Positions 49,990-53,457 of a DNA stretch of 64,000 nucleotides are shown here, piece by piece. The translations under genes and the position numbers were made by a program. The stretch lies in NCBI RefSeq assembly GCF_056712565.1, contig NZ_CM160072.1; one strand, 5' to 3'. Every line of letters starts with the position of its first letter. Position 1 is the stretch's first letter. The notes below the pieces were generated by a model. It did no database searches. It saw only the letters and a list, made by a program, of their open reading frames with translations, and had not been told where the DNA came from.

Positions 49990-50463
49990 TTAGTGATGTT
50001 TTGGCTGCACCGCAACATACATTTCGATATCCCAGTACCCATCTTCCGCGCCATTGTTCAAGTAAACCTCGAAGCAGGGCTTTGGTAACATTTCATAGGC
50101 ACTGTCCTGCAAGAGGCTATTAAAGAACTGATACCAGGGTTTAGCAAAATCATCACCGACTACACGAGCCACCGCCACCGCATACTGACCACCTGAAATT
50201 TCTGTCAGAATGACGCCCTCACTGTTTTCGGGGAGCGTAAAGTTATTCGGCACCGTCACGACGGTGTCGCAGCGTAATTTTTCGGCGGGTGTTTCATCTG
50301 GATTGTCGTAATAGACAGCAACCCACTCCTTCGGCACAATATTTTTGCTATCTATCCACATCATCAACTGCTCAAAGCCTTTCTTTACCGTCTGTTCCCA
50401 CGGGCCAACGAGATGGAAACCTGCAACGGTACGTTTATCTTCCTGCTTAATCTCGTAGTTCAT
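49990..50463 (-). CDS. sbmC: DNA gyrase inhibitor SbmC (GyrI)
   Basis: [36 protein letters not shown]... 157 aa. Confidence 0.9.
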
Positions 50464-50477
50464 GACGCCCCCATTAA

Positions 50478-50497
50478 TACTGTTTTTATATACAGTA
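50478..50497. promoter_or_regulatory. LexA (SOS) box upstream of sbmC
   Basis: tactgtttttatatacagta = CTGT-N8-ACAG palindrome just upstream of the sbmC start codon. Confidence 0.75.
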
Positions 50498-50581: not shown

Positions 50582-51754
50582 TCAGTCCTTATGGTGGAAA
50601 TAATCACTCAGCCGGGAAAACATGCTGCCTTCCCCGACAGATTCCAGGGTAACCAGCGGCCAGTGCGCCACCTGTTTATCACGGTCGTAAAGTTCAATTT
50701 CCCCTACCCGCTGATGGGCGCTAATTGGCGCGGTGAGTTCTTTACCATCAAGGGTATATTTGGCTTTGATATGTGGAATTTCGGCTTTCGGTAGCACCAT
50801 CCAGAACTCTTGTTCCGTTCCCAGGGCGATATTTTCTTTATCGCCATACCAGATGCGTTCCGTACCAACCTTTTTCCCACGGTGCAAAATTTGCACCGTA
50901 GTAAAGTTTTGTTGACCCCAACGCAGTAATTTTCTTGCCTCTTCCTCACGACCTTTTGCGCTGTCAGCCCCCATTACCACTGCAATGAGACGACGCTGCC
51001 CATCTACAGCCGAAGCAATGAGATTAAACCCGGCACCAGAAGTATGACCCGTTTTCAGGCCGTCAACATTCATGGTTTTATCCCACAATAACCCGTTACG
51101 GTTTTGCTGGGTGATACCGTTCCAGGTGAGGCTTTTCTCACTGTACATATGATAAAACTCGGGCTCGCCGTGGATGATAGCGCGAGAAAGCACAGCTAAA
51201 TCATAAGCCGAGCTATGCTGGCCAGGTGCATCCAGACCATGCACTGTTTCAAAATGCGTATCCTTGAGATGCAGCTTCTCGGCATAGTTGTTCATCATTT
51301 CAACAAACTGCCGTTGCCCACCGGCAATATAGTCAGCCAGTGCAACACAAGCGTCATTTCCGGAATCCACAATTAAACCACGGCTTAAATCACGTACCGA
51401 TACGCGATCGCCCTCTTTCAAAAACATCAGTGAAGAACCGACAAACACCGGATTATCTTTCGCCCACGCATCACGCCCCACGGTGACAATATCGTCTGGC
51501 GTAATGCGATGACTATCGATAGCGCGATCCACGACATAGCCCGTCATCAGCTTTGTCAGGCTGGCGGGATTGCGCTGTTGATGCTCATTACCCGCGGTGA
51601 GAATCTGACCGGTGGTGTAATCCATCAATACCCAGGACCCGGCATGAATCTCTGGAGGTTGAGGTGAAAAAGGAATGTTTTCCGCCGCAAAACCAGACGA
51701 TAAATTAAAAACGAACAAAGAAGCAGCAATAATAAGACGGCGTTTCAACAGCAA
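50582..51754 (-). CDS. dacD: D-alanyl-D-alanine carboxypeptidase DacD (PBP6b)
   Basis: Signal peptide, active-site SxxK (PASLTK), SGN and KTG motifs. Confidence 0.9.
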   Translation of the reverse strand: MLLKRRLIIAASLFVFNLSSGFAAENIPFSPQPPEIHAGSWVLMDYTTGQILTAGNEHQQRNPASLTKLMTGYVVDRAIDSHRITPDDIVTVGRDAWAKDNPVFVGSSLMFLKEGDRVSVRDLSRGLIVDSGNDACVALADYIAGGQRQFVEMMNNYAEKLHLKDTHFETVHGLDAPGQHSSAYDLAVLSRAIIHGEPEFYHMYSEKSLTWNGITQQNRNGLLWDKTMNVDGLKTGHTSGAGFNLIASAVDGQRRLIAVVMGADSAKGREEEARKLLRWGQQNFTTVQILHRGKKVGTERIWYGDKENIALGTEQEFWMVLPKAEIPHIKAKYTLDGKELTAPISAHQRVGEIELYDRDKQVAHWPLVTLESVGEGSMFSRLSDYFHHKD

Positions 51755-51956: not shown

Positions 51957-53384
51957 ATGATGAATGACGGTAAGCAACAATCTACCTTTTTGTTTCACGA
52001 TTACGAAACCTTTGGCACGCACCCCGCGTTAGATCGCCCTGCACAGTTCGCAGCCATTCGCACCGATAGCGAATTCAATGTCATCGGCGAACCCGAAGTC
52101 TTTTACTGCAAGCCCGCGGATGACTATTTACCCCAGCCTGGAGCAGTATTAATTACCGGTATTACCCCGCAGGAAGCTCGGGCGAAAGGAGAAAACGAAG
52201 CCGCATTTGCCGCCCGTATTCACTCGCTTTTTACCGTACCGAAGACCTGTATTCTGGGCTACAACAATGTGCGTTTCGACGACGAAGTCACACGCAACGT
52301 TTTTTATCGTAATTTCTACGATCCTTACGCCTGGAGCTGGCAGCATGATAACTCGCGCTGGGATTTACTGGATGTTATGCGTGCCTGTTATGCCCTGCGC
52401 CCGGAAGGAATAAACTGGCCTGAAAATGATGACGGTCTACCGAGCTTTCGCCTTGAGCATTTAACCAAAGCGAATGGTATTGAACATAGCAACGCCCACG
52501 ATGCGATGGCTGATGTGTACGCCACTATTGCGATGGCGAAACTGGTAAAAACGCGTCAGCCACGCCTGTTTGATTATCTCTTTACCCATCGTAATAAACA
52601 CAAACTGATGGCGTTGATTGATGTTCCGCAGATGAAACCCCTGGTTCACGTTTCCGGAATGTTTGGGGCATGGCGCGGCAATACCAGCTGGGTGGCACCG
52701 CTGGCGTGGCATCCTGAAAATCGCAATGCCGTAATTATGGTGGATTTGGCAGGAGACATTTCGCCATTACTGGAGCTGGATAGCGACACATTGCGCGAGC
52801 GTTTATATACCGCAAAAGCCGATCTTGGCGATAACGCCGCCGTTCCGGTTAAGCTGGTGCATATCAATAAATGTCCGGTACTGGCCCAGGCGAATACGCT
52901 ACGCCCGGAAGATGCCGACCGACTGGGAATTAATCGTCAGCATTGCCTCGATAACCTAAAAATTCTGCGTGAAAATCCGCAAGTGCGTGAAAAAGTGGTG
53001 GCGATATTCGCGGAAGCCGAACCGTTTACGCCTTCAGAGAACGTGGATGCACAGCTTTATAATGGCTTTTTCAGTGACGCCGATCGTGCAGCAATGAAAA
53101 TTGTGCTGGAAACCGAGCCGCGTAATTTACCGGCACTGGATATCACTTTTGTTGATAAACGAATTGAAAAACTGTTGTTCAATTATCGAGCGCGCAACTT
53201 CCCGGGGACGCTGGATTATGCCGAGCAGCAACGCTGGCTGGAGCACCGCCGCCAGGTCTTCACGCCAGAGTTTTTGCAGGGCTACGCTGATGAATTGCAG
53301 ATGCTGGCACAACAGTATGCCGATGACAAAGAGAAAGTGGCGCTGTTAAAAGCGCTTTGGCAGTACGCGGAAGAGATCGTCTGA
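51957..53384 (+). CDS. sbcB: exodeoxyribonuclease I
   Basis: MMNDGKQQSTFLFHDYETFGTHPALDRPAQFAAIRTD...; 475 aa from ATG at 51957. Confidence 0.9.
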   Translation: MMNDGKQQSTFLFHDYETFGTHPALDRPAQFAAIRTDSEFNVIGEPEVFYCKPADDYLPQPGAVLITGITPQEARAKGENEAAFAARIHSLFTVPKTCILGYNNVRFDDEVTRNVFYRNFYDPYAWSWQHDNSRWDLLDVMRACYALRPEGINWPENDDGLPSFRLEHLTKANGIEHSNAHDAMADVYATIAMAKLVKTRQPRLFDYLFTHRNKHKLMALIDVPQMKPLVHVSGMFGAWRGNTSWVAPLAWHPENRNAVIMVDLAGDISPLLELDSDTLRERLYTAKADLGDNAAVPVKLVHINKCPVLAQANTLRPEDADRLGINRQHCLDNLKILRENPQVREKVVAIFAEAEPFTPSENVDAQLYNGFFSDADRAAMKIVLETEPRNLPALDITFVDKRIEKLLFNYRARNFPGTLDYAEQQRWLEHRRQVFTPEFLQGYADELQMLAQQYADDKEKVALLKALWQYAEEIV

Positions 53385-53393
53385 AACAAAAAA

Positions 53394-53420
53394 GCCGGAG
53401 CGACAAACTCCGGCTTTTTG
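53394..53420. terminator. bidirectional rho-independent terminator between sbcB and plaP
   Basis: aaaaaa-gccggagcgacaaactccggc-ttttt. Confidence 0.75.
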
Positions 53421-53457
53421 AGATTTACCGGATGATTATGTCATCCGGTTTGTAAGA

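What the first reader, a model, noticed from the sequence alone, without database searches (positions are those of the whole stretch)
53385..53457. sbcB and plaP separated by only a 74-bp terminator-containing gap: yeeD/yeeE absent
In the K-12 arrangement as I recall it, yeeD and yeeE (thiosulfate-uptake-related) lie between sbcB and plaP. Here the two genes are convergent and separated only by a bidirectional terminator, so this strain lacks that pair or carries it elsewhere.
Basis: partly seen in the sequence, partly recalled or inferred. Interest (0 to 1): 0.3.

Follow-up and report, generated by a model that had tools for sequence, protein, structure and literature searches.

The report
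Common tsuBA-less sbcB–plaP junction allele
This E. coli strain lacks the two thiosulfate-uptake genes that K-12 carries between sbcB and plaP, but about a fifth of sequenced E. coli and most related genera have the same tight junction, so the finding is real and ordinary.

Summary
sbcB (51957-53384, +) and plaP (53458-54816, -) converge across a 73-bp gap, not 74. The gap holds one strong bidirectional intrinsic terminator and a second hairpin. No yeeD/yeeE (now tsuB/tsuA) homologue occurs anywhere in the 64-kb window.

Its conclusion that the strain lacks the pair is supported, and "carried elsewhere" is not.
- Of 5,426 complete E. coli genomes, about 1,210 carry this junction and 4,209 carry tsuA.
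- The two sets add up to almost the whole collection, even when searched with sensitive blastn.

The allele is not strain-specific or recent.
- The window matches ST95-type ExPEC genomes exactly.
- ST131-named and Nissle genomes have the identical spacer.
- A diverged version sits in about 170 genomes, including strain 042.
- Escherichia whittamii has a version 93% identical.
- Salmonella enterica and 44 of 72 Enterobacteriaceae species are also "empty", with the same conserved terminator beside plaP.

Where tsuA is present, its divergence tracks that of sbcB. I read this as an old resident cassette lost repeatedly, but the direction is not settled. A 2011 paper already reported B2-type strains lacking yeeD/yeeE. 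Interest is low.

The parts
51957..53384 (+). sbcB (exodeoxyribonuclease I), 475 aa, stop codon TGA at 53382-53384
   Evidence: It scores 814 bits against NCBIfam NF008746. tblastn shows 99.2% identity to K-12 SbcB over 475 aa. The same sequence is annotated sbcB in the Nissle record.
53385..53387 (.). Empty site. In K-12-type genomes the ~1.47-kb cassette (own hairpin, tsuB/yeeD, tsuA/yeeE, tsuA promoter region) lies here, between the sbcB stop and the A-tract of the conserved terminator. IS200C inserts at this same point in many genomes that carry the junction.
   Evidence: Comparison of the window with K-12 locus L001. IS200C insertion in EC69.
53388..53419 (.). Bidirectional intrinsic terminator shared by sbcB and plaP: A6, stem GCCGGAGC, loop, stem ACTCCGGC, T5
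   Evidence: It folds at -18.3 kcal/mol (+ strand) and -19.6 kcal/mol (- strand), with z-scores of -5.6 and -5.1. The motif AAAAAAACCGGAG...CTCCGGTTT lies next to plaP in nearly all of the roughly 70 Enterobacteriaceae loci examined, both with and without the cassette, and in Salmonella.
53428..53448 (.). Second hairpin, CCGGATGA-TTATG-TCATCCGG, in the plaP 3' untranslated region. It has no U-tract. It is specific to the Escherichia empty-site allele.
   Evidence: It folds at about -14 kcal/mol with z-scores of -5 to -6. It is present in the B2-type, 042-type and E. whittamii spacers. K-12-type retains only GATGATTATG, fused to the plaP stop, so the two differ by a 22-bp indel between GATTATG repeats.
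53458..54816 (-). plaP (yeeF), putrescine/proton symporter, 452 aa. Its stop codon is TTA on the + strand at 53458-53460.
   Evidence: tblastn shows 99.6% identity to K-12 PlaP. It is annotated plaP in the matching RefSeq records. NCBIfam gives only APC-family hits below cut-off.

Best explanation
The window comes from an ST95-type ExPEC E. coli (phylogroup B2 from general knowledge). It carries the usual "empty-site" allele of the sbcB-plaP intergenic region for that lineage.

**Anatomy.** K-12-type strains have a 1.47-kb cassette immediately after the sbcB stop codon. The cassette holds a small hairpin, tsuB/yeeD, tsuA/yeeE and their promoter-operator region. Here that cassette is cleanly absent. 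The convergent genes sbcB and plaP therefore both end at the one conserved A6-stem-T5 terminator, which in K-12 serves plaP alone.

**Origin (inferred).** The allele is an old deletion haplotype, not a recent event in this strain. It was inherited vertically in this lineage. It also occurs, in diverged form, in strain-042-type E. coli and in Escherichia whittamii. It sometimes moves between lineages by homologous recombination together with the neighbouring his/O-antigen region.

**Consequence (inferred, not shown).** The cell lacks the TsuA/TsuB thiosulfate uptake route and must rely on the CysPUWA sulfate/thiosulfate ABC system.
For: **Shown**
- Anatomy and fold of the gap.
- Comparison with the K-12 locus.
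- 1,210-1,212 of 5,426 complete genomes share the junction. 1,040 of them have a spacer at least 99% identical to the window.
- The spacer is identical in Nissle 1917 and in ST131-named genomes.
- 25 kb of the window is 100% identical to ExPEC XM, ST95-32 and an APEC O2:K1:H7 strain.
- tsuA DNA is present in exactly 4,209 genomes by both megablast and blastn, complementary to the junction holders.

**Evidence that the allele is old**
- A homologous spacer with both hairpins is 95% identical in strain 042 and about 170 other genomes, whose flanks carry K-12-like plaP and yeeY alleles.
- The E. whittamii spacer is 93% identical, while its flanks are only about 91% identical.
- The K-12-type plaP-side spacer aligns to the B2-type spacer at only about 55%.

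**Evidence for loss, not gain**
- Across 20 species that carry the cassette at this site, pairwise tsuA distances track sbcB distances (r = 0.84, mean ratio 1.00, no anomalously close pair). dacD against sbcB gives r = 0.87.
- The cassette GC content is 50.4%, the same as its flanks.
- No direct or inverted repeats bound the cassette.
- The left boundaries of empty sites differ between genera, from 3 to about 100 nt after the sbcB stop.

**Evidence for recombinational spread**
- An O157:H16 genome carries the B2-type spacer at 100% identity.
- PMC3158064 reports yeeD/yeeE missing in B2 O157:H45 and O157:H39 strains and in a phylogroup-A O157:H16 strain that received a large his/O-antigen fragment.

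**Function**
- PMC11073785 shows that an MG1655 strain deleted for cysPUWA and yeeE cannot grow on thiosulfate unless it is given both yeeE and yeeD.
Against: **The direction of change is not proven**
- Empty sites are the majority among Enterobacteriaceae species (44 of 72).
- Empty sites include Salmonella enterica and E. whittamii. On simple parsimony within Escherichia and Salmonella, the empty site could therefore be ancestral and the cassette re-acquired by non-B2 E. coli.
- The empty-site spacer contains no remnant of the cassette.
- I could not examine E. albertii, E. fergusonii, E. marmotae or E. ruysiae.

**Other gaps**
- I did not type phylogroups. "B2" and "D" rest on strain names plus general knowledge and on PMC3158064. 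Phylogroups F and G were not resolved: fetched the wrong regions and one search found no record.
- The absence of tsuAB elsewhere in the actual source genome is inferred from population counts, not from that genome itself.
- The presence of cysPUWA in this strain was not checked.
Confidence: 0.85

Rival explanations
1. The tight sbcB-terminator-plaP junction is the ancestral Escherichia/Salmonella state. The lineage leading to phylogroups A, B1 and E (K-12, W, Sakai) gained or regained the tsuBA cassette by homologous recombination from a related species. On this reading this lineage never lost anything.
For: - Salmonella enterica and E. whittamii are empty, as are two E. coli haplotypes with independently diverged spacers.
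- 44 of 72 species are empty.
- The K-12-type plaP-side spacer is far more diverged from the empty-type spacers (about 55%) than E. whittamii's is (93%), as expected for an imported haplotype.
- The K-12-type spacer looks like a 22-bp deletion derivative of the empty-type hairpin-2 region.
- The region is a documented recombination hot spot next to the his/O-antigen region (PMC3158064).
- Strain CUWW06 shows a wholesale replacement of this region.
Against: - tsuA divergence between E. coli and 19 other species matches sbcB divergence (ratio 1.0, r = 0.84), with no close donor.
- Cassette GC equals flank GC.
- There are no mobile-element features.
- The sbcB 3' end of K-12 shows no donor-like divergence. 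Its variants there are shared with the empty 042-type allele.
- Within-E. coli diversity of tsuA (95-100%) is typical for the species.
Confidence: 0.3
2. The cassette was deleted recently, in this strain or clone only.
For: A clean junction with no cassette remnant is what a simple deletion would leave.
Against: - 1,040 complete genomes from many named lineages (ST95-type, ST131-named, Nissle) have a spacer at least 99% identical to the window's.
- Diverged homologous spacers exist in strain 042-type genomes and in E. whittamii.
Confidence: 0.01
3. yeeD/yeeE have been relocated elsewhere in the genome, or the junction is an assembly artefact.
For: Only 64 kb of the source genome could be inspected directly.
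Against: - The number of genomes with any tsuA-like DNA is 4,209 at both megablast and blastn sensitivity. That is complementary to the roughly 1,210 junction holders and nearly equal to the 4,212 genomes in which sbcB and plaP are not contiguous.
- The same junction is present in over a thousand independently finished genomes.
Confidence: 0.02

Closest known systems
E. coli K-12 sbcB-tsuB(yeeD)-tsuA(yeeE)-plaP locus (b2011-b2014)
   Same: - The flanking genes, their order and their orientation are the same: dacD, sbcB, plaP, yoeI, yeeY, yeeZ, yoeB-yefM, hisL.
- The flanks are 98.1-98.3% identical.
- A homologous CCGGAGC/ACTCCGG terminator sits beside plaP.
   Different: - The 1.47-kb cassette is absent.
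- The sbcB stop is TGA, not TAA.
- The terminator loop is 5-7 nt, not 14 nt.
- There is an extra 22 bp that forms hairpin 2.
- One terminator serves both genes.
yeeD/yeeE-less O157:H45, O157:H39 and O157:H16 strains described by Iguchi et al. 2011 (PMC3158064)
   Same: - yeeD and yeeE are absent between sbcB and yeeF(plaP).
- One strain has an IS200-like insertion at the junction.
- The absence is associated with B2 backgrounds and is transferred with the O-antigen region.
- An O157:H16 genome in RefSeq has the window's spacer at 100% identity.
   Different: That paper noted the absence in passing. It gave no junction anatomy, population frequency or cross-genus comparison.
Salmonella enterica and Escherichia whittamii sbcB-plaP junctions
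   Same: - sbcB and plaP are convergent, with no tsuBA, and the conserved CCGGAG terminator lies next to plaP.
- The E. whittamii spacer is 73 bp and 93% identical, and it includes hairpin 2.
   Different: The Salmonella gap is 135 bp. It has unrelated, REP-like sequence between the sbcB stop and the terminator, and it has no hairpin 2.

Membership tests
Rho-independent (intrinsic) bidirectional terminator | A stable GC-rich stem-loop | tested here: met
   An 8-bp GC-rich stem, extended by A:U pairs, folds at -18.3 and -19.6 kcal/mol on the two strands. None of 200 shuffles folds as well.
Rho-independent (intrinsic) bidirectional terminator | A U-tract 3' of the stem on both transcribed strands | tested here: met
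   T5 at 53415-53419 serves the sbcB transcript. A6 at 53388-53393, read as U6 on the - strand, serves the plaP transcript.
Rho-independent (intrinsic) bidirectional terminator | Position just downstream of the stop codons of two convergent genes, conserved in relatives | tested here: met
   It lies 3 nt after the sbcB stop and 38 nt after the plaP stop. The motif is conserved next to plaP in nearly all of about 70 loci from many genera.
Rho-independent (intrinsic) bidirectional terminator | Transcripts actually end there in vivo | not testable with these tools
   This needs Term-seq or 3' RACE.
TsuA/TsuB (YeeE/YeeD) thiosulfate uptake locus | A YeeE/YedE-family membrane protein gene (PF04143) is present | tested here: not met
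   tblastn of K-12 YeeE against the whole window gives a best E-value of 1.7.
TsuA/TsuB (YeeE/YeeD) thiosulfate uptake locus | A TusA-like YeeD partner gene is present | tested here: not met
   tblastn of K-12 YeeD against the whole window gives a best E-value of 8.4.
Mobile element or genomic-island excision scar | Target-site duplication, terminal repeats, or an integrase or transposase associated with the variable segment | tested here: not met
   No direct or inverted repeats bound the K-12 cassette. The cassette encodes only tsuB and tsuA. Its GC content is 50.4%, the same as its flanks.
Shared, lineage-wide empty-site allele | The same junction sequence occurs in many independent genomes | tested here: met
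   1,210 genomes have the spacer. 1,040 of them are at least 99% identical. The 25-kb context is 100% identical in ST95-type ExPEC genomes.
Shared, lineage-wide empty-site allele | Restricted to phylogroup B2 | tested here: not met
   A diverged version occurs in strain 042 and about 170 other genomes with K-12-like flank alleles. The B2-type version also occurs in an O157:H16 genome. Formal phylogroup typing was not done.

The most novel reading that the evidence does not exclude
The presence or absence of tsuBA at this one intergenic site may be a very old polymorphism that crosses species boundaries. Both haplotypes would predate the split between E. coli and E. whittamii. The same either/or state recurs in Citrobacter, Kluyvera, Kosakonia and other genera. 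On this reading it is kept by niche-dependent selection on thiosulfate scavenging and reshuffled by recombination around the O-antigen hot spot. ExPEC B2 lineages would then be natural TsuAB-null strains.
Probability: 0.15. Interest if true: 0.4.

Novelty: already known. Interest (0 to 1): 0.1.

Why it matters
It matters little as a discovery. The gene-content difference is visible in every annotated B2 genome and was noted in print in 2011.

It has some practical value. Work on TsuA/TsuB thiosulfate uptake has used K-12, and roughly a fifth of sequenced E. coli are natural nulls. These include ST95-type ExPEC, ST131-named genomes and the probiotic Nissle 1917. Anyone studying sulfur assimilation or gut thiosulfate use in those strains should know that only the CysPUWA route can be expected.

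The patchy pattern at one fixed site across genera is a neat small example of recurrent loss in a recombination-prone region.

Tried and rejected
- **Pattern scan for terminators.** It missed the obvious terminator. Folding was used instead.
- **Rfam search of the spacer.** It returned only a chance Thr-leader hit (18.6 bits against a gathering score of 55). There is no known RNA family here.
- **Donor-like divergence in the K-12 flanks.** I found none. The K-12 variants in the last 120 bp of sbcB are shared with the empty 042-type allele, so the left breakpoint lies within the last few bases around the stop codon.
- **Repeats or atypical GC around the cassette.** I found none, so I rejected a mobile-element origin.
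- **Reference strains of phylogroups D and F fetched by accession.** UMN026 is not in the collection. The IAI39 and SMS-3-5 coordinates guessed from the K-12 map landed in the wrong regions. I abandoned this, so the state in phylogroups F and G is unknown.
- **Genome-contig scan with SbcB.** I recovered Salmonella through a protein look-up. The other Escherichia species remain unexamined.
- **Literature search for an explicit statement that B2 lacks yeeE.** It found only PMC3158064.

Full report
**What is in the sequence**

ORF listing, family scans and tblastn identify the following genes:
- sbmC at 49990-50463 (-) and dacD at 50582-51754 (-).
- sbcB at 51957-53384 (+). It scores 814 bits against NF008746 and is 99% identical to K-12 SbcB.
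- plaP at 53458-54816 (-), 99.6% identical to K-12 PlaP.
- yeeY (-) and then the yeeZ, yoeB and yefM ORFs (-), followed by the start of the his operon from 57907.

The stop codons of sbcB (TGA, 53382-53384) and plaP (TTA on the + strand, 53458-53460) are 73 bp apart.

The gap holds two hairpins.
- The first is A6-GCCGGAGC-loop-ACTCCGGC-T5 at 53388-53419. It folds at -18.3 kcal/mol on the + strand and -19.6 kcal/mol on the - strand, and no shuffle of 200 folds as well. It has a U-tract in both directions, so it is a textbook bidirectional intrinsic terminator.
- The second is CCGGATGA-TTATG-TCATCCGG at 53428-53448, at about -14 kcal/mol, with no U-tract.

The crude terminator scan missed the first hairpin. 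Rfam finds nothing real in the gap.

**yeeD/yeeE are absent**

K-12 YeeD, K-12 YeeE and the whole K-12 cassette DNA find nothing in the 64-kb window.

Comparison of the two loci places the difference precisely.
- In K-12 about 1.47 kb sits between the sbcB stop and the A-tract of a CCGGAGC/ACTCCGG terminator next to plaP.
- That segment holds a CCTCCGCCG/CGGCGGAGG hairpin, tsuB, tsuA and about 125 bp of AT-rich promoter-operator sequence.
- In the window that segment is missing, and the terminator follows the sbcB stop after 3 nt.

**Not elsewhere, and not special to this strain**

Counts over 5,426 complete RefSeq E. coli genomes:

| Measure | Genomes |
|---|---|
| sbcB end and plaP end in one contiguous place | 1,212 |
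| Carry the spacer itself | 1,210 |
| Spacer at least 99% identical to the window | 1,040 |
| Have tsuB-tsuA DNA (megablast) | 4,209 |
| Have tsuA DNA (word-11 blastn) | 4,209 |

The sets are complementary. The 4,212 genomes in which sbcB and plaP are not contiguous almost equal the 4,209 tsuA holders. Junction holders therefore lack the genes altogether, and there is no diverged copy down to roughly 65-70% DNA identity.

The last 25 kb of the window is 100% identical to ExPEC XM, PU-1, ST95-32 and an APEC O2:K1:H7 strain, and 99.2% identical to Nissle 1917. The window is therefore from an ST95-type ExPEC. That this lineage is phylogroup B2 is general knowledge, not something I tested. ST131-named genomes and Nissle have the identical spacer.

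**The allele is old**

- A second version of the same spacer, with both hairpins and five differences, is found at 100% identity in strain 042 and more than 60 listed genomes, and in about 170 genomes in all. These genomes have K-12-like PlaP and YeeY proteins, so they are not B2 recombinants.
- Escherichia whittamii (cryptic clade II) has a 73-bp spacer 93% identical to the window's. Its flanks are about 91% identical, so this is normal interspecies divergence. It shares two variants with the 042-type.
- The K-12-type sequence between the terminator and the plaP stop aligns with the empty-type at only about 55%. It looks like a 22-bp deletion derivative of the hairpin-2 region, between two GATTATG repeats.
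- The flanking genes show only ordinary 1-3% divergence between B2 and K-12, right up to the stop codons.

**Across the family**

A scan of GTDB species representatives with SbcB gave 72 species in which both sbcB and plaP could be seen.
- 44 have a gap of 170 bp or less.
- 20 have tsuB-tsuA at exactly this site. They include Citrobacter amalonaticus, C. youngae, Kluyvera, Kosakonia cowanii, Pseudocitrobacter, Superficieibacter, Lelliottia, Trabulsiella and others.
- 8 carry other cargo. One example is an EF-G paralogue in a Raoultella-like genome.
- Citrobacter has both the empty and the cassette-bearing state.

Salmonella enterica is empty, with a 135-bp gap and the same CCGGAG terminator. 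The AAAAAAACCGGAG...CTCCGGTTT terminator is next to plaP in nearly all of these loci, with or without the cassette.

**Direction of change**

For loss:
- Among cassette-bearing species, pairwise tsuA distances track sbcB distances (r = 0.84, mean ratio 1.00, lowest ratio 0.80). That is as good as dacD against sbcB (r = 0.87).
- Cassette GC (50.4%) equals flank GC.
- No repeats bound the cassette.
- The left boundaries of empty sites differ between genera.

I read this as an old resident cassette lost repeatedly.

For gain or regain in non-B2 E. coli:
- The nearest outgroups I could see, E. whittamii and Salmonella, are empty.
- The K-12-type spacer is strongly diverged from the empty-type spacers.

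I put loss at roughly 0.6-0.65 and regain at about 0.3. E. albertii, E. fergusonii and the other cryptic clades could not be retrieved.

**Recombination**

An O157:H16 genome has the B2-type spacer at 100% identity. PMC3158064 (2011) reported the following:
- Three O157 strains lack yeeD and yeeE: two B2 strains (H45 and H39) and one phylogroup-A H16 strain that had received a large his/O-antigen fragment.
- One of them has an IS200-like insertion between sbcB and yeeF.

So the absence, its link with B2 and its transfer by recombination are already in the literature.

**Function**

PMC11073785 shows that an MG1655 strain deleted for cysPUWA and yeeE cannot use thiosulfate as its sole sulfur source unless it is given both yeeE and yeeD. 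By inference, junction holders have only the CysPUWA route. I did not check cysPUWA in this strain.

**Verdict**

The feature is an ordinary, common and previously reported gene-content polymorphism. Interest is low.

Noticed in passing
window 53384/53385-53387; locus L085 2001-2715: IS200C (712 bp) is inserted directly after the sbcB stop codon, just before the terminator A-tract, in EC69 and other genomes. In a ranked sample of junction holders, 22 of 60 rows match only from the first spacer base onward. Several of these are ST131-named strains. This suggests that about a third of holders carry the insertion.
   Followed up: partly
loci L005-L084 (plaP): PlaP falls into two classes across genera: 96-100% or 85-90% protein identity to E. 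coli, and 87-89% or 80-84% at the DNA level. The classes do not follow genus or cassette state. Pairwise plaP distances correlate poorly with sbcB distances (r = 0.48, Spearman 0.18). This suggests old allele classes or exchange of plaP between genera.
   Followed up: partly
locus L086 (E. coli CUWW06, NZ_CP182139.1): One E. coli genome has a diverged sbcB-tsuB-tsuA-plaP segment (plaP 89% DNA identity to the window). yeeY and yoeB-yefM are not annotated in it, and a phage-type integrase lies upstream of sbcB. It looks like a replacement from another species.
   Followed up: no
locus L004 (E. coli HH45) 4001-4853: tsuA is reduced to a fragment annotated as a pseudogene and tsuB is shortened. 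This is an independent, ongoing decay of the cassette in a K-12-type background.
   Followed up: no
locus L001 3886-3922 (K-12, upstream of tsuA): There is an imperfect palindrome, AATAACCAAATTCTCTAA / TTAGAACAAATGGTTATT, in the tsuA promoter region. A similar motif (AACCAAA..TCTAA...GGTTATTAAT) recurs upstream of tsuA in most other genera. It is probably a regulator binding site.
   Followed up: no
window 53433-53461; L001 3990-4008: A 22-bp indel next to the plaP stop lies between GATTATG/GATTA(C/T)G direct repeats. The empty-type alleles have both copies and form hairpin 2. K-12-type has one copy, fused to the stop codon.
   Followed up: partly
loci L031, L033, L035, L054, L057, L067, L068 (between sbcB and plaP): In Raoultella-, Klebsiella- and Enterobacter-like species the same intergenic site holds a different 2.7-3.0-kb insert. 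In L031 it encodes a 700-aa elongation-factor-G paralogue. The site therefore accepts various cargo.
   Followed up: partly
window ~50464-50484; locus L002 1-1600 (Nissle 1917): Nissle 1917 matches the window only from about 100 bp beyond the 3' end of dacD onward. On the far side it has a ClbS/DfsB-family gene and an ISEc53 transposase where the window has sbmC.
   Followed up: no
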